64,000 nucleotides of DNA from an uncultured Erysipelotrichaceae bacterium (lineage in GTDB: Bacteria > Bacillota_I > Bacilli_A > RF39 > UBA660): the NCBI GenBank assembly GCA_902785135.1, contig CACZXL010000007.1, positions 6,016-70,015 on the forward strand. The letters run 5' to 3'. A model generated the notes under the pieces. The model saw only the letters and a program-made list of their open reading frames with translations. It ran no database searches and was not told the DNA's origin. Below, piece after piece: positions 34,550-64,000 of this stretch (within the stretch, counting starts at the first letter, position 1; each line of letters opens with the position of its first letter). The position numbers and the translations under genes were made by a program.

Positions 34550-34551
34550 AT

Positions 34552-47524: not shown

Positions 47525-47527
47525 CAT

Positions 47528-47560
47528 AAAAAAAGTAACTGAATTTAATCAGTTACTTTT
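47528..47560. terminator. Bidirectional terminator between convergent genes
   Basis: aaaaaagtaactga-atttaa-tcagttacttttt, a perfect 9-bp stem flanked by A- and T-runs. Confidence 0.65.
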
Positions 47561-48677: not shown

Positions 48678-48707
48678 TTGACTTTTTTGACTGATTTTTG
48701 ATATAAT
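48678..48707 (+). promoter_or_regulatory. Sigma-A promoter for the giant ORF
   Basis: TTGACT at 48678-83, 18-nt spacer, TGaTATAAT at 48699-48707, about 130 nt upstream of the ATG at 48837. Confidence 0.55.
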
Positions 48708-48836
48708 TATAATAGATAATAGGATAGTATAAAGAGTAGTGTAACAATGTCTCTTTGTATTAAATATGATCCTGTTGTTTTAACTATGAAATAAAATGGA
48801 AAATCAGTAATAGTTAGGGAAGTTTAGAGGTGTCTT

Positions 48837-51800
48837 ATGAAAAAATCTAGTAGGGTTAGATTATTACTTTTTGCATTAGTAGTATTTGTAATGCAATTAT
48901 TTGCTTTTAACGGAAAGGTAAAAGCAGAGTATGTTTCTTATGGTAAAACATACAATGAAGTATTTTACGTTGTTAATGGCGAACATTATAGGATGAAATT
49001 GTTTAAGAGCGATTTTGATCAATGTGGTAGCGCGGATCCAGATTATAAGAATTGGAAAAGCGTTTATATTTTTCCGTCACAACATACTTATGTCCATGGC
49101 TTAATGAATTGTATAAGAGATGTTGATGGTAACAGAGAAATACAGAAAGAAGCATTTATAGATGATCATACTGCTGTTGTTGGATGGTATAGTAACCCTG
49201 AATTAACTGGTAGTCCTATTAAATCGGCACCTTACGGACAAGATACTACTGTTTATGGTAAAACAGCACCAGCTATAACTATTTGGGTTGATGGTAAAAA
49301 AGTTAGTATGGTTAAAAATAAAACATATGACTTTGAATACATTAATTCATATAATAGATATGATAATGAAATTACATCTGAAAATAGTAAAATGACTATA
49401 GATGGTAAATATATTACTGCTATGGCTTATTGGACAAAAACAAAAGCACATGTAGATGCAAATGATAGAATTGATTTATATAGAAACGTGCATTTTTATA
49501 ATTCTCAATACTTTCCAGCTATTCATGAAATATTTAATATAAGAGGGCAAAATCCACAACTTTATAAGAGCCAAAATTCTGATAGAATCGATTATTATCA
49601 AGTACTACCAACATATTATGAAGTACTTGATTTGATAGATGAAGAAGGTAATTCATATAATTTTAAAAAAATTACTGCAACAGAAGATGTTGATGGTAAA
49701 CATTTTACAGTAATAACAAGTGATGAAATATGTGTTAAACATGGTTTATCAGGTCCTTTGAATGAACACGAAAAAGACCATCGTTTCCTTGGATATACTT
49801 TATTAGATACAGACTTAGAAGATTATGTTTATTATTCTGATGGTTATGTAAGACAAATAAATTCTTGTAATACACATGATTTTAATTTAAAAGCTCATTT
49901 TGATGGAATTAATCCTGGAGAACAAGTTAATATCGTTGAACTAAAAGGATATGGAGGTACAAGGGAAAAAGTATTAAGAGGATCAAAATATACTATTCCA
50001 ACTCCTCAAGAAAAAGCTCCTACTACATTTACAGTTACATTTGATTATCAAGATGGAGTTACACCTTCTTTAATTAAAACAGGAAAAGTAACATATACAC
50101 CAGTTGGCTATTCGTTAGATGGCGTTGTATATCCTGCTGGAACTAAAATTACTGTTGTTAAAAATATAGTTTTAGAACCAGTTTATAAAGAAACAATAAG
50201 TGATGTAGATTTTCCAACAGATCCTTCAAGACAATACTATACTTTTAAAGGATGGTTTGATCAAGGTGTTGGTGGAAGAGCAGTATCAAAAATAGAAGCT
50301 GTATCACAAAAATTATATGCTCAATGGGTTGAAAAAGATAAAGTAACAGTAATAAGACCTGATGGCGTATCTATAAATTTACAAAAAGGTACTGAATATA
50401 CACTACCATTTATTCCAAAGAAAAAACCTGCTATTTTAGCAACAGTACTTGCATATCATAACAATGAAACAGATGATTATGATTTATATTATGTTAAAAC
50501 TAATTATATAATTGGTGGATACAACATTAATAACAAACATTATGATGTTGGTGATACTATAGTTGTTAATGAAAATATAGATTTAAGACAACATTTGATT
50601 TATAACGAAGAAAGAGAAAATCCTACTTTTAAAGAATTAACAAGAGATGATTATACATTCTTAGGATACTATGATTCAGTAACAGGTGGTACAAAGTATA
50701 CTGAATATACCGGAACTACAAACAAAATATTATATGCACATTGGTCAAATGATAATAACAATGTAAAAATAACATATCCTGATGGAACGTTTGATAAAGT
50801 TTTAAAAGGTTCAAATTATACACTTAGAGATGGAATAGCAAAATCAGATGAATCAAAGACAGTAACATTTAAATATCAAGATGATTCTACAGCAGATTAT
50901 ATAACTTCTGTTAATAAACAATTTACTTCAAATGGATGGTATATAGATGGAATTCATTATGATGAAGGTCAAACTATAACTGCAGATAAAGATATGACTG
51001 TTGAATCAGATTATATAGAAACAATAATACCTGCTACTTTCCCAAGTAATCCTGTAAGAGTTGGTTACAATTTTAAAGGTTGGTATAATCAAGCATCTGG
51101 TGGAACTAAATATACAAGTTACAGTATATTTGATGATATAACACTTTATGCACAATGGACAACTTTATCTTATCAAGAAATGACTGTTACAGTACTTCCT
51201 GCTGGAACAGTTACAAAAGTAAGAAAAGGTTATTCTTATACATTACCTACATTACCAAGTAAAGATGATGATGAGTTAGCCACAGTAACTTTAAAATATC
51301 AAGATGGTTCTACAAAAGATAAAATAAAAAAAGTAACTAAATCTTATACAGTAGATAAATGGGATATATCAGGAGATACATATACAACTACAACTGCTGG
51401 AACAAGCATTAGAGTAAATAATAATCTTGTAATTAGTCCTATATATAAAGAAACTATTAATCCAGTAACATTTAAAGATGCTGAAAGAGAAGGTTATTTA
51501 TTTAGAGGATGGTATGATATTGAAGGTAATAGATATACTTATTATGATGGTATTGATGATATAACTCTATACGCTCATTGGGAAGAAACTGAGTTCCCTA
51601 TTGGTGTAGAATTTGAATTACCAGAACTTGATACAATAGACGATGAAGTATTATCAACAGTAACATTTAAATATAAAAATGATCATAGAGATACTACAAG
51701 TAATGTTGTTAGACAATATATTAAAAATGGTTGGATAGTAGATGGAAAATTATATCAACCTGGGGACAAAGTAACTTTAAAATATGATTCTATTATCAAA

Positions 51801-54800
51801 GAAGACTATACAGAAACTATTGTACCTGCAGAATTCCCAGAGGATCCAATAAAAGAAGGCAGTACATTCAAAGGATGGTTTGATAAAGAAACAAATGGTG
51901 GTAATAAATATACTACTTATGATGGTGAAGAAGATATTACTTTATATGCTAGATGGAAAAGAAATGGTACAGCAGAACCATATACTTTAGGTATAAATAA
52001 TACTCCAAAAGAAAGTATAGTGATTTCAACAAAAACATTCGTTTTACATAATGGTGAGGAAGATATAACAGTTAATATAATGGAAGACTTTGTTCCAAAT
52101 GGATGGTTAGTAGATGGTGAACCATATCCTGATGGAGCAACTATTATGAAATATCCAGATACTGTTATAAGACCAAATTATACAATATTTGTTAGAAATG
52201 CTGATTTTCCAGCAGATCCAGTTAAACCAGGATATAAATTTATTGGATGGTTCACTTCTGAAACTGGTGGATATCAAGTAACAATTTTAAATACTTATGA
52301 TTCTAATACATTACATGCACAATATACAGATAGTTTTGCATACTTAATTGATGGACCTTCATTTAATTCAAAAATATATTCTAAATACGCTAATGATTAT
52401 TCTTCAAGTTATTCATTTAGAAGAGCTACTTCAGAAGAATTGCAAGAAGTTATTAATACATTAGATTCAAGCAATGTTATTTCTACTAATGATTCTCCAG
52501 TTCCAGTATATTTTTGGAGAACAGGATCAACAATTCTAGTAGGATCAACTGCAGATACAATATATTTTAATCCGGATTCTTCATTTATGTTCTCTACAAA
52601 AGAAAATGAAAGAAACACTTCTGCAGCAAGAGAATATTATTCATCGATTGATTTAAGCAAATTCAATAGTTCAATAGTTACAAATATGAAAGGTATGTTT
52701 GCATATCAAAATAATGCAACAACAATCAACTTAAGAAATTTTAATACAAGTAGAGTAACAGATATGTCTTGGTTATTTTATGCAACATCATCTTTAAGTA
52801 CAGTAGATGTAACTTCATTTGATACTCATAATGTTACAACAATGAAAAATATGTTTGGTGCTGGTAGATTTACAAGCTTAAATGTAACTAGATTTGATAC
52901 AAGTAATGTAACAGATATGTCATACATGTTTGAAAATAACTTGTTGACAGATCCATTAAATTTAAGCAGATTTGATACTAGTAAAGTTACTAATATGAGT
53001 TACATGCTTTCATCAATAGGATATGTTCCAAGTATAGATGTTTCAAGTTTTGATACAAGTAATGTAACAGACATGTCAAATATGTTCTCTAGTACACCTT
53101 GGGTTACAACTTTAAATTTAGGAAGCTTTGATACAAGTAGTGTAGAAAATGCAAATAATATGTTCTATAATACTGGTTCAAATAAATTAACAACAATTTA
53201 TGTTTCTGAAAAATGGAATTTAAGTGATCTTCCAAGTAATCAAAGAATATTCTTTAATAATAATCAACTAGTTGGACAAAAAGGAACAGTATATGATGGT
53301 CATGATTATAAGGATTATGCGATTATAGACGACGCTCCTAATAATCCGGGTTATTTAACACATGTTAAAAATATAAAACCAATACCAGAAGGTACTCATA
53401 CAGTTAGTCTTCCTGATTATACTGAAGAAGTAGATCATGGATCAACTTATGATATTCCAAATAATAGATATCCAAAAGAAAACGAGGATGTCGCTAAAGT
53501 AACATTTAAATATGGAAATGGTCATGAAGATACAACAAGTAAAGTTCAAAAACAATTTATAGGTAATGGATTTACAATTGATGGGGTTCATTATGATGAT
53601 GGTGGATCTATTGTTGTAGTAAAGGATATTGCTTTAATACCTGATTATACTGAAGTTAATTTAGGTGCAGAGTTCCCAGAAGATCCTTCAAATAATCAAT
53701 TTGAATTTATTGGATGGTTTGATCATGAATTTGGTGGTACTCAATATACAAATTATGCTGGTAATGAAGATATTACTTTATATGCTCAATGGAAAGTAAA
53801 TGTTGCTCCTATACCAGGACAAGATTATGTATTACCTACAAATAATTATCTTAAAGAAGATGAAATATTAGGAACAGTAACATTTAAATACCATAATGGC
53901 ACTGCTGATACAACAAGTACTGTTATTAAACAATATATTAATCATGGTTGGTTGGTAAATGGAGATTATTATAACGATGGTGATGTTATTAATGTTGTAG
54001 AAGGTGTTGATTATATAATTGAACCTAATTATATAGTTAAGACTATTCAAGCTGAATATCCAGAAAATCCTAGTAAAGATGGTTATGAATTTGCTGGATG
54101 GTATACTGAAGAAACTGGTGGTAAATTAGTATCTGCTTATAGTGGAGAAACAGATATAACATTACATGCTCAATATTCTGATGATTATGCATTATTAGAT
54201 TTAGGTGGTAATGTAAATACTAAGTTAAAGAGTTTATGTAATAGTTATACTGGATTAAATGATTTATCATTTAGAAAAGCAACTCAAGATGAATATAATC
54301 TAGTATCTAGTTCTTTAACTGATGATAATAAAATTTCTTCTAGTGATTCACCTAAAACAGTATATGCATGGTTAAGTGGAGATGAAGTAATATATTATTC
54401 TGATGCAGATATTATCTATGCAAAACCAAATTCTATCTGGATGTTTAAAGAGACAACTTTTAAAACAATAGATATATCTGGTATAAATACAACAAAGGTT
54501 ACTGATCTAGGTTATTTCTTCGAAGAATGTCATTCGTTAGAAGAGATAATTGGTTTAGATACTTTATATACTCATAATGTTAAAGGAATGGCATATATGT
54601 TCCATAACACTACTAGTTTAAAAACTGTAGATTTAAGTCATTTTGATACAAGTAAAGTTACAGGCTTTCATAGTATGTTCTCAGGTAGTGCTGTAACAAA
54701 ACTAGATTTAAGAAGTTTTGATATAAGTTCTGCTACTAGAATAGATAGAATGTTCCAATCAACTCGAAGTCTTAAAGAACTTGATATAACTAGTTTTGAT

Positions 54801-57800
54801 ACAAGTAATATAACTAATATGGAAGGCACGTTTGCATATACTGCTTTAGATGAAATTGATTTAAGTCATTTTGATACAAGTAAAGTAAATAATGTTAGAG
54901 CAATGTTTTCTAATGTTGAGGCTACAACTATTTATGTATCTGAAAAATGGGGTCTAAGTAATTCAATTGATGATTATAGATTATTCTGGAGAGCTTATAA
55001 CCTTGTTGGACAAAAAGGAACAGTATATGATGAAGGACAAATTGATAGAGCTTATGCAATTATAGACGATGCTCCAGAACATCCAGGATATTTAACTTAT
55101 AGAAAAGCACCAGGTTCACCTGATACATATTCTGTAGTTTATCCTGATGGAAGAGTATTTAATGTAGTAGCTGGTGGAACTCATACATTATTAGAAAATA
55201 ATTATCCTAAAGAAGATAGTAAGTTAGCAACAGTAACATTTAAATACTATAATGGTCACGAAGATACTCAAAGTTATGTAATGAGAAATTATACTCCTAA
55301 TGGTTGGTTAGTAGAAGGAACTCATTATGGTAATGGACAAAATATAACTGTTAATAGTGATATATTATTGGAACCAGATTATACTAATGCAACTATTAAA
55401 GCAGAATTCCCAGAAAATCCAACTGCTGAAAATTTAAAATTTAAAGGTTGGTATTCAGCAGCTTCTGGTGGTTCAAAATATTCATCATATTATAACCTTT
55501 ATGATATTACATTACATGCTCAATGGGATAGTACAACAAATCCAATGCCAGGTAGTCCTTATACATTGCCAACAAATAATACTACTAAGGCTAGTGAAAA
55601 TGTAGCTAGTGTATTATTTAAATATCAAAATGGTAAAGAAGATACAGTTAGTTATGTTAAAAAGAACTTTAAACCAAATGGATGGTTAGTAGATGGAGTT
55701 CATAAGAATACTGGTGAAATAATAAATGTTACTGAAGATACAGTTATTGAACCAGATTATACAATTACTTATTCATCTGCTTCATTCCCAGCAAATCCTA
55801 CAAGAACTGGATATACATTTATGGGATGGTTCGATGCAGAATTTGGTGGTAATATTTATAGTAGAACTACTGGATATAAAGAACCTAGAAATATTACTTT
55901 ATATGCTCATTGGAGTAAAACAGGTAATACTTATACTTTACCTTTGAATGAAGAAACAAAAGAAAGTGAAGTAGTATCTCTTGTAACGTTTAAATACCAT
56001 AATGGAGAAGCAGATACTTATGGACAAGTAATTAGAAAATATGTTCCAAATGGATGGCTTGTAAATGGTGTTCATAAAGAAACTGGAGAAAATATTACAA
56101 AGACTGACCAAACTATTATAGAACCAGACTTTAGAGAAGTTATTGTACCAGTAGAGTTACCTAAAAATCCTACTAAAACCGATTATTTGTTTGAAGGTTG
56201 GTATGATGCAGAAACTGGTGGAAATAAAATTGTAGTTTATAAAGGAACAGAAAATATTACATTGCATGCTCACTATACTAATAATTATGCAATTTTAACA
56301 ACTGGACCTTTATTCCATAATAAGGTGGTAGAATTAACATCATCATATACTTCTTCAGCACAATTTACATTTAGAAAAGCAACTGAATCAGAGTATAACG
56401 AAGTAGCTGAAACATTAACAAATGCTAATATTATTTCAGCTAGAACATCTCCAAATGTAGCTTATATGTGGACATCTGGAAACTTAATTCTATATTATTC
56501 ACCTGTAGATATAATATTTATGAATGAAGATAGTTCTTCAATGTTCTTTGTAGCTAATAGTAATACGCAATTTAATAAATTTTTATCTATAGATATGACT
56601 GGATTAAACTCAAGTAGAGTTAGAAGTATGCATGCTTTATTTAAGGCAGAATCCAATAGTGGTATAACTACATCTATTGATTTAACAAATTTTGATACTC
56701 ACAATGTTACTGATATGTATGGAATGTTTTCTGGTTTAAATAAGATTACATCAATAGATACAAGTTCATTTGATACAAGAAAAGTAAAAGATATGTCCGG
56801 AATGTTTGATAATTGTAGTAAGATTACATCATTAGATTTGAGTCATTTTGATACAAGTAATGTTACAAATATGACAAATATGTTCGGCTCATGTTATAGT
56901 TTAACATATTTGAATGTATCAAATTTTGACACAAGTAAAGTAAAAAAATTTGACTATATGTTTGCAGGTTGTAGAGCATTAACAGAAATAGATGTTAGAA
57001 GCTTTAATACTGAAGGGGTAACTAGTGAATATGAATCTGGTTATGCAAGTATGTTCGGAAATATGTCGTCTATAACTGAACTAGATTTAACATCATTCTC
57101 TGGTGGAGTAGGAAATATGGTTAGCATGTTTTCTGGTTGTAGTAATTTAGTAACAATATATGTTTCAGAAAAATGGGAAGAACCTAGAAGTGAATATTTT
57201 GAAGGAAGAACATTCGAGAGTGATACAAAACTAGTTGGACAAAAAGGAACAACATATGATGCAAATCACGTTGATTCAGAATATGCTAGAGTAGATGAAG
57301 GCCCATCTAGACCTGGATATTTAACATTTAAAGGATTGATAGGTACTCATAAAGTTACTCTTCCTAACAGAGTTGAGGAAGTTAAACATGGTGGAAGTTT
57401 CGTAATACCTAAAAATACAATTTCTAAAGCAAGTGAAGATTTAGCAACAGTAACATTTAAATATGGAAATGGACAAGATGATACAACTAGTAAAGTTCAA
57501 AAACAATATGTACCTAATGGTTGGTCTATTGAAGGATTGCCTTATTCAGATAATGAAGTGATAATAGTTTTAGAAGATATTACTATTGATGCTGAATATT
57601 CAGAAATACAAGTTGGAGCAACTTATCCATCAACTCCTTATAAAGAAGGATATGCATTTGTTGGATGGTATACAGAAGAAACTGGAGGAGAAAGAGTAGA
57701 TTCATATAATGAATTAAATGATATAACATTATATGCTCATTGGACTCTAGATCCGCCAGAACCAAATCAACCATATGTATTACCTTTAAATGATAATGCT

Positions 57801-60800
57801 AAAGCAAGTGAAGACTTAGCAGAAGTAACATTTAAATTTAATAATGGTGACGTAGATTATATTGGTTATGTTACAAAAGTATATACACCAAATGGATGGC
57901 TTGTTGATGGTACTCATTATAATTCAGGAGATACTATTAATATTGGAGATACTATTCCTGAAATAATACCTGATTATACTGAAGTGATAAAAGGTGTTAC
58001 ATTCCCAACTGATCCTAAGAGAGTAGGTTTATACTTTGATGGTTGGTATGATGCTAAAGTTGGAGGAACTAAATATACTTCATATGAAGAAACAAATGAT
58101 ATTACTTTATATGCTAGATATACTGATCAAGGTGATTATGGTAAATATAAATTACCAATTAATAATGAAACTAAACCTTCAAAAATTATTTCAACAGTAA
58201 CATTTAAATATCATAATGGACAAGAAGATACTACTGCTAATGTAGTAAGAAGATATGAACCAAACGGATGGTTAGTAGATGGTGTCTATCATGGTAATGG
58301 TGAATATATAAAGAAAAATGATAATACTGTAATAGTACCAAGTTTTGCAGAATTTATCGATCAAGTTATATTCCCAGCTACACCTACAAAGAATGGAAGT
58401 TCATTTGTAGGATGGTATACAGCAGAAACTGGTGGAGACCATGTTACAACTTATAAAGGTACAATTGATATTACATTACATGCACAATATACTGAAAGTT
58501 ATTCAATATTAGTACCAGGTACTACTTTCCGTAATATTGTAGCTAATAAAACATTAGGTCAATTTACTGAAGCAACTCGTAATAATAATATATATTTCAG
58601 AAAAGCAAACCAATCTGAATATAATGCAGTTTCAGCAAATCTAACATCAGATAATATTATATCTACTTCAGATTCACCATATGTTACTTATATTTGGTTT
58701 AATGAAAGTAATGATGAAGTATTATATTATTCTGAGGCAGATGTAATATATGCAAACCCTGATTCGTCATATATGTTCTCACCAATAAATAAATGGGACC
58801 ATAATAATTTCTCATATAATATAATAGATTTATCTGGAATAAACTTTAATAAGGCTACTACTTTCTATTATATGTTCTATACATATTATTCTAGAGATTA
58901 TTTAAAAGAAATAATTTTTGGTGACATAGATACAAGTAATGTAACAAATATGTCTGGTATGTTCTTACATAATACAGGAATAAGGAACTTAGATGTAAGT
59001 AAGTTTAATACAGGTAATGTAACGAATATGTCTACTATGTTTGGTTCTTTAACTTCAATTGAAGAATTAGACGTAAGTAATTTTGATACTCATAATGTTA
59101 TTAATATGAATGGTTTATTTTCCGTTATGGAAAAGTTATCAGAGTTAGATTTAAGTAATTTTGACACAAGAAAAGTAACAAATATGGGATCTATGTTTTC
59201 TCAGTGTAAATCTTTAGATTATTTAGATGTAAGCATGCTTAATACACATAATGTAACAGATATGTCTTATATGTTTAGTGGTATGCTTGCTCTTAGAAAA
59301 CTTGATTTAGGTTCATTCGATACATCTAATGTAACGACTATGTACTCCATGTTTCAAAGTGATATGGTATTACGATATGTAAATCTATCTTCATTTGATA
59401 CATCTAAAGTAACAAATATGCAGCAAATGTTTGATGGAACTGGTTTAATGGAAATAGATGTAACAAGTTTTAATACTAGTAATGTAACAAATATGCAACA
59501 TATGTTTAATAATAGTGATTTCCTTAAAAGAATTGTAGGATTATCTTCATTCGATACTAGTAACGTAACAAGTATGCAAGGAATGCTTGCTTGGAATTCT
59601 TCTCTTGAATATGTAGATATTTCTAATTTTACATTTGATAGTATATCTGGTAATGGTGTTTATGGTTTATTTGAACGCGATGAAAATCTTAAAGAAGTTG
59701 TTTTTGGTGATATAAAATTCAATAATCCTTCATCAATGGCATTTATGTTTGATGATGATAGATCATTAGTAAGAATATCATATAATTCTATTGATACAAG
59801 CAATGTTAATAATATGGAGTATTTATTTGCATATTGTGAATCGCTAAATGATTTCTCTATGGTTACTGAATTTGATACATCTAATGTAACAAGAATGAAT
59901 GATATGTTCCTTGGAGTTTCAGTAACAACATTAGATTTAAGTAATTTTGATACAAGAAATGTAACAAGTATGAATGGTATGTTTGCTGGTTCTTGGGCAA
60001 GTGCTCCTAATAGAAATCTAAGGACAATATATGTTTCTGATTTCTGGGATACAAGCAAAGTTACAAATGGATCATCTATGTTTCAATATTCATCTAGTCT
60101 TGTTGGAGAAAAAGGAACTACATTTGATTCAAATCACATAGATGTTGATTATGCACATGTAGATGGTGGTACTTCTAATCCAGGATACTTAACTTATAAG
60201 AAGTCAGGTTATAACGTTACACTTCCAGATAGAGTAGATCATGTTAAAGCTGGTGACGAATATACAATTCCTTTAAATGATTACTTTAAAGATGATGAAA
60301 CATTATCTACAGTAACATTTAAATATCAAAACGGACAAGATGATACAACAAGTAATGTAGTTAAAAAATATGTTCCAAAAGAATGGAAGATAGAAGACGA
60401 AGATTATGAAAATAGAGAAGTAATAAAAGTATATAAAGATATTGTTTTACTTCCACAATATGAAGAAGAATTATTTGAAGCTGAATTCCCAGCTGATCCA
60501 ACAAAAGATAATTATATATTTGATGGATGGCATACTTCTGCTACTGGTGGAACTAGATACTTCAATTATGCTGGGGATAGTAATTTAACTTTATATGCTC
60601 ACTGGGCTAAACCAGATGATAAATTCTTTGATTTAACTTATTGCGATTTAGATGGAGAATGCGAAACAACTAGAGTAACTAATGGTACTAAAGTTAAATT
60701 AGCTAAACAATCTGCTTCTAAGGAATTATTATTATATCTAGATTATCAAGATGAAAATCCTAGAAGACAATATAAAGCTACATATAAAAAGGAATCAAGT

Positions 60801-63800
60801 AGTTTCTTAGTAAATGATAAATCATATAATGTTGATGATGTAGTAACAATTACTGAAGATACTACAATAGTTCCAGAAGTTAAAATAATAGAATCTAAAT
60901 CTACAATTGCAGAACCTACTAAAGAAGGTCAAAAGTTTATAGGTTGGTATACTGATGCTTCTGCTGGAAGTCAAATAGATATTGACTCTATAACATATGA
61001 TCAATTTGATACTTATAATGGTAATACTTTATATGCTCATTATGTAGAAGTAGGAACAAATCAAGTAGTAGTAGATTTTGATGGTGATATAAGAGTAGTT
61101 AATAAGGGAACTACAGAAAATCTTCCATCTACTAAGAATAAAGATAGTGATTCATTTATAATTCATTGGATTGATAGTCATGGAAGTAACTATAATTCAA
61201 CTATTACAAATAGTTACTCATTAGATAAGTTCTTAGTAAATGGAGAAGAAAAAGAAAAAGGAGCGTCAGTAACTTATAATGAAGATACTGTAATTAGATC
61301 TCAATACACAACTACTAGAAGTTATGATTCTAATACTACAAGTACTTATAGTATTAGTTATCCAAATTTATTACCAAATAATAATGAAGACTTCTTAGGA
61401 TGGTTTGTATTAGATGATGAAATAGATGATGTTTCTGATATTAATACTGAAACTAATATCTACGCTCACTATGTTGAAAAGATTAATTTAGATGTAGATG
61501 GTAAAGTTTCTAAAGTAAATAAAGGAACAGTTTATACTGTACCAACAAGTACTGTTAATGAATCTATTACTATCACATTAGATCAAAATTATGTAGGAGC
61601 ACCATCTCCAGTAGATTATACAATTACTACTTCTAATGAATTAGAATATCAAACTATTAATGGAGTAGTATACTTCCCAGGAGATGAAATAACTCTTAAT
61701 GAAGATACAGTAGTTGTAAGTACTGCTTCAGAAGAAGAAACAACTATTGAACCAGCATATACTAAACCAGAAAGAACTGGATATATATTCAAAGGTTGGT
61801 TACATAATAATGAAGAAGTATTTATAGAAAATATTACTGGTAGAACTACTTCACTAGATAATGAAACATTAACTGGTGATTGGGAAGAATTTAATTCTGA
61901 AACTAACGCAATATTACATGTAACTGGTAAATTTACATATGATATTCAAGTTACTAAAGGATCAGAATTAGAAATTATAGATTTTGCTAAAGATACTAAT
62001 GCAAGTATTAAATTAGTAGATAACGATAATAACAAAGAATATAATGTTACTTTAACAACTAATTATATGCCAACATCAGGAACATTTAATGGTACTCCAG
62101 TAAGTTCTGATAGTTCTATAGTTGTTAATGAAGAATCAACATTAGAATTAGAATATTTAGATGTTAATACAAGAGTATATGATATAGAATATCCAGAGTA
62201 CTTAGAAGAAGAACCTCCAGTAGAAATAACTAATAATACATATGTAGGTATTTATGAAGAAGATTCTACTGATTCAAATAGAATAGATTACTTAAGTCTA
62301 AGCGCAGAAAGTGATATAGATGGAAATACATACTATATTAAATATCTAAATCCTGATCAAGGATATGTATTAGTAACATTAGATGGAAATGCTTATGTAG
62401 TGCCTAAAGGACCTGGTAAATTACCTGGACCTACTACTAAAACAAGTGATGAATATACAATAACATTTGATTATAATAGATCATCTGGTAGAAAAGAAGA
62501 AAGAAAGATTATAAAGAGTTATCAATATGATAAATTCTATGTAACAGTACCAGAAGAAAGTTCTAATACATCTGGAAATTACCAATCAGAAGCAAACTTT
62601 AACTATGATACAAATACAGTTATTGATAGTTTATTCACTTATACAATTACTTATCCAGAAATACCTGAAGTAAATTCAGAAAACTTCTTAGGATGGTATA
62701 CTAAACCAAACGGAGGAGAATTAGTTACTTCTCTAGAAGGTAAAGTAGAAGATTATACATTATATGCTAGATATGATAATCAAATAATGAATATAACATT
62801 AGATGAAACAGTTTATACAGTTCCATATGGTGATGAATTTGAATTCCCAGCTGGACCAAGTAAAACTAGTGAATCAATAACACTTCATCTACATGATAAT
62901 TATGGTGAAGATAATGTTAATGACTATGTTATAAGTAAAGATTATACATTTAAATCTTATATAATAGATGGAGTAGAATATAATGCTGGTGATAAATTAA
63001 TAATCACTGAAGATAAATTAGGTCATTCTACATATACTGAATCTAAATCTACAAATGATGAATCATTATTAAGACCAGAAAGAGATAATTACTTATTCGC
63101 TGGATGGGAAGATTCAGAACATAATAGAGTAAATGTTTCATCATTAACCGCTGATGATACAGAATATGATGAAAAAGATTTATATGCTAAATGGGAAGAA
63201 GATAATGGAGATAATATTACTATTGATTATGATGGAGAAATAATAGTTGTTCCAAGTGGAACATATACACCATCAAGATTAACTAGTGAATATGAAAGTC
63301 CGTTAAAACCAAAAGATGAAATAATGACTGTAACAGTTGATTGGAATGGCGCAGAAGGTCATGATTCACCAACTAAACAAGTTGTTATTAAGAAAAATTG
63401 GATTCTTTCTAAGTTAATAATTAATGAAGATGAACTAATTGATTATGATAATACAGAATATGTATTTAATTTTGATACTAAAGTTCAAGGAGTATTTGAT
63501 AAGACTTATGAAGGTGATATTACTACTGAAGGTGGAGATAACTCAGAAGGTATTTATACTGAACCAGTAGGAGGAACTAAAATTGAGTCTAATGATCAAG
63601 TAACTGATGGTGCATATTATTATGTTCATTATAGAAATAGTTATAGTATCTATATAAATAATGAATTCTATGAATCTGTTAATGCAGGAAGGTATACTTT
63701 ACCAGTTAATACAGTTCCTAAGAACATGGATAATATCGCAACTATTACATATGATTATCAAGATGGTAGAGATAATACATACGGTTATGTTAGAAGAAAA

Positions 63801-64000
63801 TATACTCCAAACGGATGGAAGATTGGTAGTACATTCTATATCAATAATGCAATAATAAATGTTAATTCAGATAGATATTTAGTATCTCAATATACAGATT
63901 CTATTAATGGAGTAACAGAACTTCCAAATCCTACTAGAAAAGGATATAGATTTGATGGTTGGTATACTAATACTGAATATACTGAAAAGGTAACTTCATA
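48837..64000 (+). CDS. Giant secreted multi-repeat surface protein, 3'-truncated by the window edge (at least 5,054 codons). It has a signal peptide and an N-terminal unique domain. It then alternates about 20 Listeria-Bacteroides-type (Flg_new/InlB B-repeat-like) repeats with 4 DUF285-type LRR modules
   Basis: ATG at 48837 after ggaagtttagagg; signal peptide MKKSSRVRLLLFALVVFVMQLFAFNGKVKA. I translated long stretches in frame 0 (48837-52320, 52314-53350, 56271-56760, 60598-64000) and found no stop. ~75-aa repeats end in (F/Y)xGW(Y/F)xxxTGGxKYTxYxGxxDITLYAxW. Modules at about 52.3-53.35 kb, 54.17-55.09 kb, 56.27-57.31 kb and 58.49-60.19 kb carry 6-10 tandem FDTSNVTNMSxMF-type ~24-aa units and end IYVSEKW...LVGQKGTVYD...IDDAPxxPGYLTYK. 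The ORF track omits it because no stop lies in the window. Confidence 0.85.
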   Translation, partial: MKKSSRVRLLLFALVVFVMQLFAFNGKVKAEYVSYGKTYNEVFYVVNGEHYRMKLFKSDFDQCGSADPDYKNWKSVYIFPSQHTYVHGLMNCIRDVDGNREIQKEAFIDDHTAVVGWYSNPELTGSPIKSAPYGQDTTVYGKTAPAITIWVDGKKVSMVKNKTYDFEYINSYNRYDNEITSENSKMTIDGKYITAMAYWTKTKAHVDANDRIDLYRNVHFYNSQYFPAIHEIFNIRGQNPQLYKSQNSDRIDYYQVLPTYYEVLDLIDEEGNSYNFKKITATEDVDGKHFTVITSDEICVKHGLSGPLNEHEKDHRFLGYTLLDTDLEDYVYYSDGYVRQINSCNTHDFNLKAHFDGINPGEQVNIVELKGYGGTREKVLRGSKYTIPTPQEKAPTTFTVTFDYQDGVTPSLIKTGKVTYTPVGYSLDGVVYPAGTKITVVKNIVLEPVYKETISDVDFPTDPSRQYYTFKGWFDQGVGGRAVSKIEAVSQKLYAQWVEKDKVTVIRPDGVSINLQKGTEYTLPFIPKKKPAILATVLAYHNNETDDYDLYYVKTNYIIGGYNINNKHYDVGDTIVVNENIDLRQHLIYNEERENPTFKELTRDDYTFLGYYDSVTGGTKYTEYTGTTNKILYAHWSNDNNNVKITYPDGTFDKVLKGSNYTLRDGIAKSDESKTVTFKYQDDSTADYITSVNKQFTSNGWYIDGIHYDEGQTITADKDMTVESDYIETIIPATFPSNPVRVGYNFKGWYNQASGGTKYTSYSIFDDITLYAQWTTLSYQEMTVTVLPAGTVTKVRKGYSYTLPTLPSKDDDELATVTLKYQDGSTKDKIKKVTKSYTVDKWDISGDTYTTTTAGTSIRVNNNLVISPIYKETINPVTFKDAEREGYLFRGWYDIEGNRYTYYDGIDDITLYAHWEETEFPIGVEFELPELDTIDDEVLSTVTFKYKNDHRDTTSNVVRQYIKNGWIVDGKLYQPGDKVTLKYDSIIKEDYTETIVPAEFPEDPIKEGSTFKGWFDKETNGGNKYTTYDGEEDITLYARWKRNGTAEPYTLGINNTPKESIVISTKTFVLHNGEEDITVNIMEDFVPNGWLVDGEPYPDGATIMKYPDTVIRPNYTIFVRNADFPADPVKPGYKFIGWFTSETGGYQVTILNTYDSNTLHAQYTDSFAYLIDGPSFNSKIYSKYANDYSSSYSFRRATSEELQEVINTLDSSNVISTNDSPVPVYFWRTGSTILVGSTADTIYFNPDSSFMFSTKENERNTSAAREYYSSIDLSKFNSSIVTNMKGMFAYQNNATTINLRNFNTSRVTDMSWLFYATSSLSTVDVTSFDTHNVTTMKNMFGAGRFTSLNVTRFDTSNVTDMSYMFENNLLTDPLNLSRFDTSKVTNMSYMLSSIGYVPSIDVSSFDTSNVTDMSNMFSSTPWVTTLNLGSFDTSSVENANNMFYNTGSNKLTTIYVSEKWNLSDLPSNQRIFFNNNQLVGQKGTVYDGHDYKDYAIIDDAPNNPGYLTHVKNIKPIPEGTHTVSLPDYTEEVDHGSTYDIPNNRYPKENEDVAKVTFKYGNGHEDTTSKVQKQFIGNGFTIDGVHYDDGGSIVVVKDIALIPDYTEVNLGAEFPEDPSNNQFEFIGWFDHEFGGTQYTNYAGNEDITLYAQWKVNVAPIPGQDYVLPTNNYLKEDEILGTVTFKYHNGTADTTSTVIKQYINHGWLVNGDYYNDGDVINVVEGVDYIIEPNYIVKTIQAEYPENPSKDGYEFAGWYTEETGGKLVSAYSGETDITLHAQYSDDYALLDLGGNVNTKLKSLCNSYTGLNDLSFRKATQDEYNLVSSSLTDDNKISSSDSPKTVYAWLSGDEVIYYSDADIIYAKPNSIWMFKETTFKTIDISGINTTKVTDLGYFFEECHSLEEIIGLDTLYTHNVKGMAYMFHNTTSLKTVDLSHFDTSKVTGFHSMFSGSAVTKLDLRSFDISSATRIDRMFQSTRSLKELDITSFDTSNITNMEGTFAYTALDEIDLSHFDTSKVNNVRAMFSNVEATTIYVSEKWGLSNSIDDYRLFWRAYNLVGQKGTVYDEGQIDRAYAIIDDAPEHPGYLTYRKAPGSPDTYSVVYPDGRVFNVVAGGTHTLLENNYPKEDSKLATVTFKYYNGHEDTQSYVMRNYTPNGWLVEGTHYGNGQNITVNSDILLEPDYTNATIKAEFPENPTAENLKFKGWYSAASGGSKYSSYYNLYDITLHAQWDSTTNPMPGSPYTLPTNNTTKASENVASVLFKYQNGKEDTVSYVKKNFKPNGWLVDGVHKNTGEIINVTEDTVIEPDYTITYSSASFPANPTRTGYTFMGWFDAEFGGNIYSRTTGYKEPRNITLYAHWSKTGNTYTLPLNEETKESEVVSLVTFKYHNGEADTYGQVIRKYVPNGWLVNGVHKETGENITKTDQTIIEPDFREVIVPVELPKNPTKTDYLFEGWYDAETGGNKIVVYKGTENITLHAHYTNNYAILTTGPLFHNKVVELTSSYTSSAQFTFRKATESEYNEVAETLTNANIISARTSPNVAYMWTSGNLILYYSPVDIIFMNEDSSSMFFVANSNTQFNKFLSIDMTGLNSSRVRSMHALFKAESNSGITTSIDLTNFDTHNVTDMYGMFSGLNKITSIDTSSFDTRKVKDMSGMFDNCSKITSLDLSHFDTSNVTNMTNMFGSCYSLTYLNVSNFDTSKVKKFDYMFAGCRALTEIDVRSFNTEGVTSEYESGYASMFGNMSSITELDLTSFSGGVGNMVSMFSGCSNLVTIYVSEKWEEPRSEYFEGRTFESDTKLVGQKGTTYDANHVDSEYARVDEGPSRPGYLTFKGLIGTHKVTLPNRVEEVKHGGSFVIPKNTISKASEDLATVTFKYGNGQDDTTSKVQKQYVPNGWSIEGLPYSDNEVIIVLEDITIDAEYSEIQVGATYPSTPYKEGYAFVGWYTEETGGERVDSYNELNDITLYAHWTLDPPEPNQPYVLPLNDNAKASEDLAEVTFKFNNGDVDYIGYVTKVYTPNGWLVDGTHYNSGDTINIGDTIPEIIPDYTEVIKGVTFPTDPKRVGLYFDGWYDAKVGGTKYTSYEETNDITLYARYTDQGDYGKYKLPINNETKPSKIISTVTFKYHNGQEDTTANVVRRYEPNGWLVDGVYHGNGEYIKKNDNTVIVPSFAEFIDQVIFPATPTKNGSSFVGWYTAETGGDHVTTYKGTIDITLHAQYTESYSILVPGTTFRNIVANKTLGQFTEATRNNNIYFRKANQSEYNAVSANLTSDNIISTSDSPYVTYIWFNESNDEVLYYSEADVIYANPDSSYMFSPINKWDHNNFSYNIIDLSGINFNKATTFYYMFYTYYSRDYLKEIIFGDIDTSNVTNMSGMFLHNTGIRNLDVSKFNTGNVTNMSTMFGSLTSIEELDVSNFDTHNVINMNGLFSVMEKLSELDLSNFDTRKVTNMGSMFSQCKSLDYLDVSMLNTHNVTDMSYMFSGMLALRKLDLGSFDTSNVTTMYSMFQSDMVLRYVNLSSFDTSKVTNMQQMFDGTGLMEIDVTSFNTSNVTNMQHMFNNSDFLKRIVGLSSFDTSNVTSMQGMLAWNSSLEYVDISNFTFDSISGNGVYGLFERDENLKEVVFGDIKFNNPSSMAFMFDDDRSLVRISYNSIDTSNVNNMEYLFAYCESLNDFSMVTEFDTSNVTRMNDMFLGVSVTTLDLSNFDTRNVTSMNGMFAGSWASAPNRNLRTIYVSDFWDTSKVTNGSSMFQYSSSLVGEKGTTFDSNHIDVDYAHVDGGTSNPGYLTYKKSGYNVTLPDRVDHVKAGDEYTIPLNDYFKDDETLSTVTFKYQNGQDDTTSNVVKKYVPKEWKIEDEDYENREVIKVYKDIVLLPQYEEELFEAEFPADPTKDNYIFDGWHTSATGGTRYFNYAGDSNLTLYAHWAKPDDKFFDLTYCDLDGECETTRVTNGTKVKLAKQSASKELLLYLDYQDENPRRQYKATYKKESSSFLVNDKSYNVDDVVTITEDTTIVPEVKIIESKSTIAEPTKEGQKFIGWYTDASAGSQIDIDSITYDQFDTYNGNTLYAHYVEVGTNQVVVDFDGDIRVVNKGTTENLPSTKNKDSDSFIIHWIDSHGSNYNSTITNSYSLDKFLVNGEEKEKGASVTYNEDTVIRSQYTTTRSYDSNTTSTYSISYPNLLPNNNEDFLGWFVLDDEIDDVSDINTETNIYAHYVEKINLDVDGKVSKVNKGTVYTVPTSTVNESITITLDQNYVGAPSPVDYTITTSNELEYQTINGVVYFPGDEITLNEDTVVVSTASEEETTIEPAYTKPERTGYIFKGWLHNNEEVFIENITGRTTSLDNETLTGDWEEFNSETNAILHVTGKFTYDIQVTKGSELEIIDFAKDTNASIKLVDNDNNKEYNVTLTTNYMPTSGTFNGTPVSSDSSIVVNEESTLELEYLDVNTRVYDIEYPEYLEEEPPVEITNNTYVGIYEEDSTDSNRIDYLSLSAESDIDGNTYYIKYLNPDQGYVLVTLDGNAYVVPKGPGKLPGPTTKTSDEYTITFDYNRSSGRKEERKIIKSYQYDKFYVTVPEESSNTSGNYQSEANFNYDTNTVIDSLFTYTITYPEIPEVNSENFLGWYTKPNGGELVTSLEGKVEDYTLYARYDNQIMNITLDETVYTVPYGDEFEFPAGPSKTSESITLHLHDNYGEDNVNDYVISKDYTFKSYIIDGVEYNAGDKLIITEDKLGHSTYTESKSTNDESLLRPERDNYLFAGWEDSEHNRVNVSSLTADDTEYDEKDLYAKWEEDNGDNITIDYDGEIIVVPSGTYTPSRLTSEYESPLKPKDEIMTVTVDWNGAEGHDSPTKQVVIKKNWILSKLIINEDELIDYDNTEYVFNFDTKVQGVFDKTYEGDITTEGGDNSEGIYTEPVGGTKIESNDQVTDGAYYYVHYRNSYSIYINNEFYESVNAGRYTLPVNTVPKNMDNIATITYDYQDGRDNTYGYVRRKYTPNGWKIGSTFYINNAIINVNSDRYLVSQYTDSINGVTELPNPTRKGYRFDGWYTNTEYTEKVTS

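What the first reader, a model, noticed from the sequence alone, without database searches (positions are those of the whole stretch)
48837..64000. Single >15-kb ORF for a giant modular surface protein, missing from the ORF track
One frame is open from a good RBS, ATG and signal peptide at 48837 to the window end, at least 5,054 aa. The architecture is ordered. A ~390-aa unique N-terminal domain comes first. Then ~75-aa Listeria-Bacteroides-type repeats (…GYxFxGWYxxxTGGxKYTxY…DITLYAxW) appear in groups of 2-4. These are separated by four ~300-550-aa modules of FDTSNVTNMSxMF leucine-rich units, which is the DUF285 motif known from Mollicutes lipoproteins. The last 3.4 kb (60.6-64 kb) keeps only degenerate Flg_new-like repeats. 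A protein of this size and module combination in a small AT-rich sporeformer genome is unusual, and is a candidate host-adhesion or cell-cell contact protein.
Basis: partly seen in the sequence, partly recalled or inferred. Interest (0 to 1): 0.9.

Follow-up and report, generated by a model that had tools for sequence, protein, structure and literature searches.

The report
Giant dockerin-tethered rumen bacterial surface protein
The open frame is real and is the first 72% of a 6,989-residue secreted repeat protein from an uncultured ruminant-gut bacterium, most likely a very long adhesin plugged onto the cell surface through a dockerin-cohesin joint; it is a large but ordinary member of a protein class already known from gut Firmicutes.

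Summary
Observation confirmed. The frame from ATG 48837 has 0 stops in 5,054 codons (about 460 expected; 279-846 in the other frames). Pfam confirms Flg_new and DUF285 (PARCEL/BspA-type LRR).

The window is identical to a public rumen-type metagenome scaffold. There the gene runs 20,970 nt to a stop and was already called as a 6,989-aa protein.

Architecture: signal peptide; orphan 362-aa N-domain; 32 long (106-aa) Flg_new units; four capped PARCEL modules; then, beyond the window, an unassigned ~180-aa domain, Big_2, an ~85-aa X-module and a C-terminal dockerin. There is no LPXTG, lipobox or transmembrane anchor.

A divergent neighbouring gene (47553-48254, minus strand) encodes a signal peptide plus cohesin. 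Two downstream genes (2,288 and 646 aa) carry the same X-dockerin cassette, and a Cadherin-like 2,083-aa protein follows. The same cluster layout recurs in three other metagenome loci.

Best reading: a long-reach, multivalent adhesin held on a cohesin partner by a calcium-dependent dockerin. The ligand is unknown.

Signal-LRR-dockerin proteins and 10-30 kaa gut Clostridia proteins with these domains are already described, so this is a new member of a known kind. Interest is modest (0.3), not 0.9.

The parts
48678..48707 (+). Promoter-like site for the giant gene: TTGACT, 18-nt spacer, TATAAT, with TG before the -10
   Evidence: 11 of 12 consensus matches, the best in the region. This is a consensus match only and has not been shown to function.
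48827..48832 (+). Shine-Dalgarno-like GAGGTG, 4 nt before the ATG
   Evidence: Read directly from the sequence.
48837..48926 (+). Start codon and Sec-type signal peptide (aa 1-30, predicted cleavage after VKA); no lipobox
   Evidence: It is the only hydrophobic segment in the whole protein and the first ATG after the in-frame stop at 48825. The cleavage site is assigned by rule, not by a predictor.
48927..50012 (+). Orphan N-terminal domain (aa 31-392), the distal tip of the protein
   Evidence: The exhaustive HMMER search of 1.84 billion representatives finds only the protein itself, plus weak hits to one Flg_new-like stretch at about aa 105-175. There is no relative in JGI metagenomes. The single-sequence AF2 model is unusable, pLDDT 31.
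50013..52325 (+). Six long (about 106-aa) Flg_new-type units (aa 393-1163)
   Evidence: Own profile HMM, 57-143 bits per unit; Pfam Flg_new.
52326..53474 (+). PARCEL/DUF285 (BspA-type LRR) module 1: N-cap, about 7 units of 25-26 aa, C-cap (TIYVSEKW...PGYLT), and a linker (aa 1164-1546)
53475..54176 (+). Two long Flg_new units (aa 1547-1780)
   Evidence: 137-144 bits.
54177..55208 (+). PARCEL/DUF285 module 2 (aa 1781-2124), about 6 more degenerate units with the same caps
55209..56276 (+). Three long Flg_new units (aa 2125-2480)
   Evidence: 141-146 bits.
56277..57425 (+). PARCEL/DUF285 module 3 (aa 2481-2863)
   Evidence: The slice aa 2375-2969 retrieves more than 7,900 BspA-family proteins at 34-49% identity.
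57426..58490 (+). Three long Flg_new units (aa 2864-3218)
   Evidence: 134-144 bits.
58491..60287 (+). PARCEL/DUF285 module 4, the largest (aa 3219-3817, about 15 units)
   Evidence: The minus-strand ORF 59660-60058 lies inside it and is an antisense by-product, not a gene.
60288..64000 (+). One well-conserved Flg_new unit (aa 3818-3923), then degenerate Flg_new-like units to the window end; the last unit (from aa 4962) is cut by the window edge
   Evidence: The gene continues for 5,806 nt beyond the window (L083 25165-30970): 10 more Flg units, an unassigned ~180-aa domain, Big_2, an X-module, a dockerin, the stop codon and a terminator hairpin.
47553..48254 (-). Divergently transcribed 233-aa gene: signal peptide, cohesin domain, E/K-rich tail. 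Candidate docking partner.
   Evidence: Pfam Cohesin scores 29.7 bits for the whole ORF and 37 bits (E 5e-9) for the domain alone, against a cut-off of 24.1. A profile with three homologues hits solved cohesins: 5g5d 6e-6, ScaB 8e-5. No TM segment or LPXTG was found. Binding to the giant's dockerin is inferred, not shown.

Best explanation
What it is. Window 48837-64000 is the 5' 72% of a single 20,970-nt gene for a 6,989-aa protein (mature form about 790 kDa, pI 4.4) from an uncultured, low-GC, spore-coat-gene-bearing Firmicute of the ruminant gut.

Shown. The frame is intact. The order of parts is: Sec signal peptide; orphan 362-aa N-terminal domain; 32 long Flg_new (Listeria-Bacteroides) units; four capped BspA/PARCEL leucine-rich solenoid modules set among the first 15 of those units; then an unassigned ~180-aa domain, a Big_2 domain, an ~85-aa X-module and a C-terminal dockerin. 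The protein has no LPXTG, lipobox or membrane anchor. A cohesin-bearing secreted protein is encoded divergently next door. Two downstream paralogues carry the same Big_2-X-dockerin cassette.

Inferred mechanism. The protein is exported by Sec. Its C-terminal dockerin binds calcium and plugs non-covalently into a cohesin. The partner is either the adjacent 233-aa cohesin protein or the downstream Cadherin-like 2,083-aa protein, whose N-terminus is cohesin-like. The chain of beta-rich Flg_new units acts as a long spacer, and it holds out four variable LRR binding surfaces and the orphan tip domain. In short, it is a long-reach multivalent adhesin. The ligand (plant particle, another microbe or host surface) is unknown.

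Wider pattern. The gene belongs to a recurring cluster type in related metagenome contigs: large Flg_new±PARCEL proteins ending in X-dockerin, followed by Cadherin-like proteins with N-terminal cohesin-like domains. This amounts to a cellulosome-style assembly carrying binding modules, with no enzyme domain detected in the scanned proteins of these clusters.
For: ORF reality.
- 0 stops against about 460 expected.
- The window is identical over 25,164 bp to ENA scaffold STEW19-1_SAMEA5383941_METAG-scaffold_74, and the window protein is an exact prefix of the 6,989-aa product.
- A separate Logan assembly of run ERR3275098 matches window 41120-53004 with 0 mismatches.
- The longest exact repeat inside the gene is 29 bp, and internal DNA repeats are at most 81% identical, so repeat collapse is unlikely.

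Domains.
- Pfam and NCBIfam results.
- Own unit maps.

Dockerin.
- The tail aligns end to end with the dockerin of solved structure 8x3a (E 3.5e-5).
- A profile of three tails hits more than 12 solved dockerins: 8x39 9e-11, ScaB 4e-5, 4dh2 6e-5, R. bromii Amy16 2e-4, R. flavefaciens Doc8, C. thermocellum Xyn10B/CelS.
- All three tails match Pfam Dockerin_1, best E 1.4e-5.
- There is one canonical DxDxDGxxxxxD loop, at aa 6921.

Cohesin neighbour.

No other anchor: no LPXTG, lipobox or TM segment, and no SLH or choline-binding hit.

Shared cassette: the last 732 nt are 91% identical to the 3' end of gene 2, and gene 3 has the same cassette.

Recurrence of the cluster.
- L084: an open frame of at least 3,493 aa with 21 Flg units, Big_2 and X-dockerin, followed by Cadherin-like proteins. 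One of these ends in Dockerin_1 (35 bits); two begin with a domain homologous to the window's cohesin.
- L086/L087 and L088.

Own transcription unit: promoter upstream; hairpin plus T-run right after the stop, then a new promoter.

Literature.
- Expressed PARCEL proteins are surface proteins (PMC2996958).
- Signal-LRR-dockerin proteins exist in R. flavefaciens, and some dockerins may serve cell-surface structuring (PMC2930009).
- Giant gut Clostridia proteins with these domains have been proposed to act in adhesion (10.1101/2023.11.21.568195).
Against: - No binding, expression or localisation data exist. Adhesion is inferred from domain families whose ligands are mostly unknown.
- The giant's own dockerin tail is below Pfam's cut-off (15.4 against 22.9 bits). 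Its second calcium loop carries a 7-8-residue acidic insertion, so it may bind atypically or weakly.
- The adjacent cohesin protein has no recognisable cell-wall or membrane anchor, so how the complex would be fixed to the cell is unresolved.
- The cohesin-like call for gene 4's N-terminus is weak: Pfam E 0.0023, best PDB E 0.005.
- A 360-bp exact match between the 3' cassettes of the giant gene and gene 2 means a short-read assembler could have swapped the two 3' junctions. That would not change the architecture.
- The two assemblies probably used the same reads, so they are not fully independent.
- Neither the orphan N-domain nor the ~180-aa domain could be assigned.
Confidence: 0.65

Rival explanations
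1. Substrate-binding component of a cellulosome-like complex. The protein docks onto a scaffoldin as above, but its role is to bind plant cell-wall polymers or feed particles, holding the cell or an enzyme complex on fibre. This is analogous to the dockerin-borne cellulose-binding protein CttA of Ruminococcus flavefaciens, and it is not cell-cell or host adhesion.
For: - Nearest relatives come from ruminant-gut MAGs.
- Cohesin-dockerin hardware is present.
- An unassigned ~180-aa domain occurs in all three paralogues. Its (non-significant) best fold matches are all ConA-like lectin jelly-rolls.
- CttA-type dockerin-anchored binding proteins are described in PMC2930009.
Against: - Pfam detected no carbohydrate-binding module or glycoside hydrolase in the giant protein, genes 2 and 3, the N-terminus of gene 4 or the related-cluster proteins scanned.
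- The lectin-like hint rests on a pLDDT-42 model with E > 0.3 and carries no weight.
- BspA/PARCEL LRRs and Flg_new units are usually linked to protein or cell-surface binding (general knowledge of the families, not tested here).
Confidence: 0.2
2. The dockerin-like tail does not act as a cohesin ligand. It is a calcium-binding EF-hand-like stabilising element, or it binds something else. The protein is then released, or it is held on the cell by another route such as its acidic surface or interaction with the wall. The neighbouring cohesin gene would be coincidental.
For: - The tail is below Pfam's Dockerin_1 cut-off, and its second loop is interrupted by an acidic insertion.
- The cohesin protein has no evident cell anchor.
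- Cohesin- and dockerin-like modules are known outside cellulosomes with unclear roles (general knowledge).
Against: - The profile hits many solved dockerins over their full length.
- The cassette is conserved in three paralogues and in three other loci. Two of those loci also encode proteins whose N-terminal domain is homologous to the window's cohesin.
- Cohesin and dockerin genes are adjacent here. No alternative anchor was found.
Confidence: 0.12
3. Assembly artefact or decaying pseudogene. The 21-kb frame is a chimera of several shorter repeat-protein genes joined by a short-read assembler, or it is a gene that is no longer expressed.
For: - It comes from a short-read metagenome scaffold.
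- The Logan contig ends inside the gene, at window 53004.
- There is a 360-bp exact match with gene 2 at the 3' end.
- No expression data exist.
Against: - Zero stops in 6,989 codons at 28% GC is incompatible with decay.
- Apart from that 3' match with gene 2, the gene offers nothing to mis-join on: its longest internal exact repeat is 29 bp and its internal repeats are at most 81% identical.
- Two assemblers agree over the first 4.2 kb.
- The architecture is orderly, with one signal peptide at the start, one anchor cassette at the end, and promoter and terminator in the expected places.
- A related locus has an open frame of at least 3,493 aa of the same build.
Confidence: 0.03

Closest known systems
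BspA-family / PARCEL (DUF285, PF03382; TIGR02167) leucine-rich repeat surface proteins (Roske et al. 2010, PMC2996958)
   Same: Tandem 25-26-residue FDTSxVTxMxxMF units score far above the curated cut-offs. The modules have the family's usual N-cap and C-cap, which are also seen in hits P0002 and P0061. The protein is secreted or surface-targeted. The antisense frame is partly open, echoing the dyad symmetry described for PARCEL DNA.
   Different: There are four separate capped modules in one chain, set among the Flg_new units, and the protein is 6,989 aa long. The hits listed were about 550-1,040 aa, though the listing may be length-limited. It has a Sec signal peptide and a dockerin rather than the lipoprotein anchor of the Mollicutes members. 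Identity to the nearest relatives is only 34-49%.
Listeria-Bacteroides repeat (Flg_new, PF09479 / TIGR02543), as in the B-repeats of Listeria internalins
   Same: 28 Pfam-detectable stretches, with the GYxFxGWY...TLYAxW signature.
   Different: The unit is extended to about 106 aa by an N-terminal TVTFKYxNG...PNGWxVDG half. The protein is not an internalin: NCBIfam InlA/InlH models score 119-129 bits against cut-offs of 1,050-1,600, and there is no LPXTG.
Dockerin-bearing non-enzymatic proteins of rumen Ruminococcus cellulosomes (SIGN-LRR-Doc proteins; X-dockerin-anchored CttA), Rincon et al. 2010, PMC2930009
   Same: Signal peptide, LRR or other binding modules, and a C-terminal dockerin preceded by an extra module. 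Cohesin genes lie in the same cluster. The setting is the rumen.
   Different: It is far larger. Its LRRs are of the DUF285 type. The dockerin is divergent, with an insertion in the second loop. The organism is not a Ruminococcus: the closest ProRS matches, at 75-80%, are to unnamed rumen 'Bacilli/Firmicutes' MAGs. No enzyme domains were detected in the scanned proteins of the cluster.
Giant (10,000-30,000 aa) Clostridia proteins from mammalian gut metagenomes (West-Roberts et al. 2023, bioRxiv 10.1101/2023.11.21.568195)
   Same: The same domain vocabulary is reported there: Listeria-Bacteroides repeats, dockerin repeats and leucine-rich repeats, with an adhesion role proposed.
   Different: This protein is smaller (6,989 aa). 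It is resolved here module by module, with its cohesin neighbour and paralogues. It was not compared directly with those sequences.

Membership tests
Flg_new / Listeria-Bacteroides repeat (PF09479, TIGR02543) | Match to the family HMM above the curated cut-off, in tandem copies | tested here: met
   256.1, 192.2 and 175.8 bits against a cut-off of 27; 11 + 8 + 9 stretches. TIGR02543 scores 130 and 99.5 bits against a cut-off of 20.95.
DUF285 / PARCEL / BspA-family LRR surface protein (PF03382, TIGR02167) | Tandem 25-26-residue repeats matching the family HMM above the cut-off | tested here: met
   PF03382 scores 194.9 and 372.6 bits against a cut-off of 25. TIGR02167 scores 180 and 319 bits against a cut-off of 30. 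31 units were mapped with an own HMM. More than 7,900 homologues were found, several named 'BspA family leucine-rich repeat surface protein' by NCBI.
DUF285 / PARCEL | Dyad symmetry of the repeat-coding DNA (the 'palindromic' in the name; PMC2996958) | tested here: inconclusive
   Antisense frame -1 of every module has 10-22 stops against 25-52 in the other antisense frames, and an open stretch of up to 140 codons. It does not match the PARCEL HMM, and no formal palindrome statistic was run.
Mollicutes PARCEL lipoproteins (e.g. NF045896 Mbov_0838 family) | Lipoprotein signal peptide with lipobox cysteine; full-length match to the family model | tested here: not met
   No lipobox in the first 40 residues. 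NF045896 scores 72-108 bits against a cut-off of 500.
Class 1 internalins (InlA, InlH/InlC2) | Full-length model match; LPXTG sortase signal | tested here: not met
   119-129 bits against cut-offs of 1,050-1,600, repeat region only. No LPXTG anywhere in the 6,989 aa.
Type I dockerin (PF00404) | Match to the Pfam model above its cut-off | tested here: not met
   The giant's own tail scores 15.4-15.5 bits (E 0.02) against a cut-off of 22.9. The gene 3 tail scores 19.2 bits. The P0134 tail reaches E 1.4e-5.
Type I dockerin (PF00404) | Full-length sequence homology to experimentally solved dockerins | tested here: met
   Single sequence: 8x3a E 3.5e-5 over 69 residues. Three-sequence profile: 8x39 9e-11, then 4uyq_B, 4dh2_B, 9qf9, 5m2s_B, 5m2o_B, 2ccl_B, 3ul4_B, 1ohz_B and 2mte_A, all dockerins.
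Type I dockerin (PF00404) | Two calcium-binding loops (DxDxDGxxxxxD), each followed by a helix | tested here: inconclusive
   The first loop is canonical (DIDQDGYVDISD, aa 6921). The second, DVDIDEEAEEDEMIDISD, carries a 7-8-residue insertion in the giant, gene 2 and P0134. Gene 3 lacks this insertion; its loop reads ADIENDGIDIID.
Type I dockerin (PF00404) | Calcium-dependent binding to a cognate cohesin | not testable with these tools
   This needs recombinant proteins or a complex prediction. The structure tool takes single chains only.
Cohesin (PF00963): neighbouring gene 47553-48254(-) | Match to the Pfam model above its cut-off, and homology to solved cohesins | tested here: met
   29.7 bits for the whole ORF and 37 bits for the domain, against a cut-off of 24.1. 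Profile hits: 5g5d 6e-6, 3l8q 8e-5, 1zv9/1qzn/3f2l/3bwz about 2e-4.
Cellulosome (enzyme-assembling cohesin-dockerin complex) | Dockerin-bearing carbohydrate-active enzymes and a multi-cohesin scaffoldin in the same genome | not tested
   Only the 64-kb window, 17 kb further downstream on L083 and three related loci were seen. Pfam detected no GH, CE, PL or CBM domain in the cluster proteins scanned. The rest of the genome is unavailable.

The most novel reading that the evidence does not exclude
The locus may represent a conserved, non-enzymatic 'adhesosome' of uncultured low-GC ruminant-gut Firmicutes. In this reading, a cellulosome-style cohesin-dockerin scaffold, built on Cadherin-like repeat proteins with two divergent cohesin types, displays interchangeable giant Flg_new/BspA adhesins that share a dedicated Big_2-X-dockerin cassette kept alike by gene conversion. 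Each adhesin would carry its own lineage-specific tip, here an orphan 362-aa domain with no relative among 1.84 billion representative proteins, and the tip would set what the cell sticks to.
Probability: 0.3. Interest if true: 0.5.

Novelty: new member of a known kind. Interest (0 to 1): 0.3.

Why it matters
If the model holds, this bacterium spends 21 kb, plus about 15 kb more in three neighbouring genes, on long binding proteins hung on cohesins. That would add to the evidence that cohesin-dockerin systems in the rumen organise adhesion as well as enzymes. It would also give a concrete, testable cohesin/X-dockerin pair and four LRR modules for ligand hunting. In practical terms, the case shows that window-edge ORFs drop out of ORF lists. 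It also shows that the gene was already in public protein sets, so the finding adds annotation detail and does not reveal a new kind of system.

Tried and rejected
- N-terminal domain, word-indexed search (5.8 billion proteins): nothing found, not even the protein itself. This tool listed no hit above 1,041 aa and also missed genes 2 and 3, so its negatives are weak. The exhaustive HMMER search then found the full-length protein.
- Genome-collection scan with the last 499 aa of the window: no relative among GTDB species representatives. The species, or this region, is therefore absent from the representatives.
- ProRS scan: named the nearest organisms but showed no synteny for the giant gene.
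- JGI metagenome scan with the N-domain: nothing.
- AF2 on the N-domain (pLDDT 31) and on the ~180-aa domain (pLDDT 42), both single-sequence and both unusable. Foldseek on the latter gave only non-significant galectin and LNS jelly-roll matches.
- Pfam and PDB sequence searches of the X-module and the ~180-aa domain: nothing meaningful.
- Rejected: internalin membership, lipoprotein anchoring, and LPXTG, SLH or choline-binding anchors.
- Rejected: the minus-strand ORF 59660-60058 as a gene.
- First attempt failed on a frame error of mine.
Full report
1. The observation

The frame that starts at ATG 48837 is open through all 5,054 codons to the window end. At the local composition (28% G+C) about 460 stops would be expected. 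The other five frames of the same stretch carry 279-846. The ATG is the first start codon after an in-frame stop at 48825. It is preceded by GAGGTG at 48827-48832. An 11/12 sigma-70 consensus with an extended -10 lies at 48678-48707.

The first 30 residues have the charge, hydrophobic core and VKA|E layout of a Sec signal peptide. They contain no lipobox cysteine, and they are the only hydrophobic segment in the protein.

Pfam confirms both domain calls far above the curated cut-offs, as does NCBIfam:
- Flg_new: 256 and 192 bits.
- DUF285: 195 and 373 bits.
- NCBIfam names the DUF285 units 'PARCEL repeat-containing surface protein'.

2. The true extent of the gene

The fast word-indexed protein search found nothing for the N-terminal domain, not even the protein itself. 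The exhaustive HMMER scan of 1.84 billion representatives returned one strong hit, a 6,989-aa protein.

Its contig is ENA scaffold STEW19-1_SAMEA5383941_METAG-scaffold_74 (152 kb). That scaffold is identical to window 38837-64000 over 25,164 bases with no mismatch, and the window protein is an exact prefix of the full product. The window therefore lies on this scaffold, and the gene is 20,970 nt long.

A hairpin plus T-run follows the stop directly, and then a consensus promoter for the next gene. The ORF was 'missing from the ORF track' only because frames that run off a window edge are not listed. Public gene calling had already found it.

3. Is the assembly sound?

- A Logan assembly of run ERR3275098 reproduces window 41120-53004 exactly. 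It probably used the same reads, so this shows agreement between assemblers, not independent data.
- The longest exact repeat inside the gene is 29 bp, and internal DNA repeats are at most 81% identical over at most 353 bp. The repeats are therefore old, and the gene body is not an assembly trap.
- The one weak point is a 360-bp exact match between the 3' cassettes of this gene and the next one (732 nt at 91% identity). A swap there would leave the architecture unchanged.

4. Anatomy

Profiles built from the protein itself give this order:
- Signal peptide, aa 1-30.
- Orphan domain, aa 31-392.
- Six long Flg_new units.
- PARCEL module 1, aa 1164-1546.
- Two Flg units.
- PARCEL module 2, aa 1781-2124.
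- Three Flg units.
- PARCEL module 3, aa 2481-2863.
- Three Flg units.
- PARCEL module 4, aa 3219-3817.
- One good Flg unit, then a run of degenerate ones that extends past the window edge to about aa 6294.
- An unassigned ~180-aa domain, starting at aa 6296.
- Two well-conserved Flg units, aa 6509-6750.
- Big_2.
- An ~85-aa X-module.
- A ~70-aa C-terminal tail.

There are 32 Flg units in all, 22 of them starting inside the window. The unit is about 106 aa, and the 13 best units average 43% pairwise identity. Pfam's 65-residue model covers only its second half.

Each PARCEL module has a conserved ~100-aa N-cap (FRKAT...DSP...YYS.AD.IY) and a 56-58-aa C-cap (TIYVSEKW...LVGQKGT...PGYLT). The same caps appear in unrelated BspA-family hits. 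The mature protein is about 790 kDa with pI 4.4.

5. The anchor

There is no LPXTG, lipobox or transmembrane segment. Pfam found no SLH or choline-binding repeat in the C-terminal 1,989 aa.

The tail reads RGDIDQDGYVDISD...YAADVDIDEEAEEDEMIDISD...FILG. The evidence that it is a dockerin:
- On its own it falls below Pfam's Dockerin_1 cut-off (15.4 against 22.9 bits).
- It aligns end to end with a dockerin in solved structure 8x3a (E 3.5e-5).
- A profile of three such tails hits a dozen solved dockerins from Acetivibrio, Ruminococcus flavefaciens, R. bromii and C. thermocellum (best 9e-11).

I accept it as a divergent type-I-like dockerin. Its first calcium loop is canonical, and its second carries a 7-8-residue acidic insertion.

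6. The partner

The gene transcribed divergently from the same intergenic region (47553-48254, minus strand) encodes a signal peptide, a cohesin domain and an E/K-rich tail.
- Pfam Cohesin scores 29.7 bits for the ORF and 37 bits for the domain alone, against a cut-off of 24.1.
- A four-member profile hits solved cohesins at 6e-6.
- The protein has no evident cell anchor.

Downstream on the same strand lie three more genes:
- Gene 2: 2,288 aa, Flg_new + DUF285 + Big_2, with a nearly identical X-dockerin.
- Gene 3: 646 aa. It has the same layout as the giant's last ~780 residues, behind its own signal peptide.
- Gene 4: 2,083 aa, Cadherin-like, with a weakly cohesin-like N-terminus (Pfam E 0.0023; the best PDB profile hits are all cohesins, but only at 0.005).

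7. Recurrence elsewhere

Searching with the X-dockerin cassette found related loci.
- L084 (scaffold name XIEF21-1; 31% G+C) holds an open frame of at least 3,493 aa with 21 long Flg units, Big_2 and X-dockerin. It is 46% identical to the giant's last 490 residues. Cadherin-like proteins follow it: one ends in a confident Dockerin_1, and two begin with a domain homologous to the window's cohesin (E 5e-20 and 3e-9).
- L086/L087 hold tandem genes of at least 1,924 aa and 1,520 aa with Flg_new + DUF285 + X-dockerin, followed by Cadherin-like proteins of 1,836 and 710 aa. The 710-aa protein again starts with the cohesin-type domain.
- L088 repeats the pattern on a short contig.

The giant gene is therefore one member of a recurring cluster type. 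The N-terminal domain is the exception: it has no relative beyond itself in 1.84 billion representatives or in JGI metagenomes, apart from one Flg_new-like stretch.

8. Organism and context

The nearest ProRS sequences (75-80% identity) come from goat-rumen, cattle-rumen (RUG/hRUG) and roe-deer gut MAGs labelled only 'Bacilli', 'Firmicutes' or 'Clostridia'. None shows synteny for the giant gene. The window also carries cotJB- and cotJC-like genes, two T-box leaders and housekeeping tRNA synthetases. 'AT-rich sporeformer of the ruminant gut' is therefore fair, but genome size is unknown.

9. How it most likely works

Shown: an intact secreted 6,989-aa chain with the order tip domain, stalk of Flg_new units carrying four LRR solenoid modules, then Big_2-X-dockerin; a cohesin gene next door; and paralogues sharing the anchor cassette.

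Inferred: after Sec export, the dockerin binds a cohesin, either on the small neighbour or on the Cadherin-like protein. This tethers the C-terminus, so the Flg_new chain projects the LRR surfaces and the orphan tip away from the cell as a multivalent adhesin.

This borrows from three sources:
- The established role of cohesin-dockerin pairs in surface assembly.
- The surface location of expressed PARCEL proteins (PMC2996958).
- The view that some rumen dockerin proteins structure the cell surface instead of degrading fibre (PMC2930009).

I put about 0.65 on this overall. The ORF and architecture are close to certain. Tethering by cohesin-dockerin is about 0.65-0.7. Adhesion as the function is about 0.5-0.6.

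Rivals:
- A fibre- or substrate-binding role within a cellulosome-like complex (0.2).
- A dockerin-like tail that is not a cohesin ligand (0.12).
- An artefact or pseudogene (0.03).

10. Comparison and novelty

By HMM, the protein is a member of the BspA/PARCEL and Flg_new repeat families. It is not an internalin and not a Mollicutes-type lipoprotein. It works like the signal-LRR-dockerin and X-dockerin binding proteins of R. flavefaciens (PMC2930009). It also belongs with the 10,000-30,000-aa gut Clostridia proteins carrying Listeria-Bacteroides repeats, dockerins and LRRs that West-Roberts et al. already noted (10.1101/2023.11.21.568195).

The PARCEL module alone has more than 7,900 relatives, many of which also carry a precomputed Pfam Dockerin_1 (PF00404) hit. 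I therefore rate it a new member of a known kind.

What is mildly new is the resolved alternation of four capped LRR modules along a Flg_new stalk, the orphan tip, and the conserved cluster with Cadherin-like cohesin proteins and no detected enzymes. Interest is 0.3.

Noticed in passing
window 27672-27851 and 38719-38945 (+): Two T-box leaders above Rfam's gathering score. One lies ahead of a class-I Glu/Gln-type tRNA synthetase gene (28090-29772), the other ahead of MetRS (38988-40619).
   Followed up: no
window 33986-34594 (-) and 34552-34914 (-): A cotJC-like (Mn-catalase family) and cotJB-like spore-coat gene pair.
   Followed up: partly
window 59660-60058 (-): A 132-codon minus-strand ORF lies inside PARCEL module 4. 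In all four modules, antisense frame -1 has 2-3 times fewer stops than the other off-frames. This probably echoes the dyad symmetry reported for PARCEL-coding DNA. It is not a gene.
   Followed up: partly
window 42221-43783 (+): A 520-aa protein with an N-terminal HTH_3 (Cro/CI-type) domain followed by about 8 predicted membrane segments. It could be a membrane-bound regulator and lies 5 kb upstream of the surface-protein cluster.
   Followed up: no
window 44252-47524 (+): Three ORFs with no family match lie directly upstream of the cohesin gene: a 129-aa TM-anchored protein, a 214-aa TM-anchored K/E/T-rich protein, and a 667-aa E/K-rich coiled-coil-like protein. L086 has a similar K/E/T-rich TM protein (205 aa) beside its adhesin genes.
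   Followed up: no
window 47490-47813 (+): A 107-codon phenylalanine-rich, low-complexity ORF, largely antisense to the 3' part of the cohesin gene. It is probably spurious.
   Followed up: no
window 48574-48598: An 11-bp-stem hairpin with a T-run in the divergent intergenic region between the cohesin gene and the giant gene. A bidirectional terminator-like hairpin also lies at 47530-47561.
   Followed up: no
L083 30040-30970 vs 37200-37934 (beyond the window): The 3' Big_2-X-dockerin cassettes of the giant gene and gene 2 are 91% identical in DNA and include a 360-bp exact match, whereas the gene bodies are at most 78% alike. This suggests recent gene conversion of the anchor cassette.
   Followed up: partly
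P0061: A partial protein labelled Methanobrevibacter sp. is 44% identical to the query slice (66% of it covered) and has the same long Flg unit, N-cap and PARCEL build. This could reflect horizontal transfer among rumen organisms or mis-binning.
   Followed up: no
tool behaviour: The word-indexed protein search listed no hit longer than 1,041 aa. It failed to return the 6,989-aa protein itself, gene 2 or gene 3. Its 'no homologue' results for giant proteins should not be trusted.
   Followed up: yes
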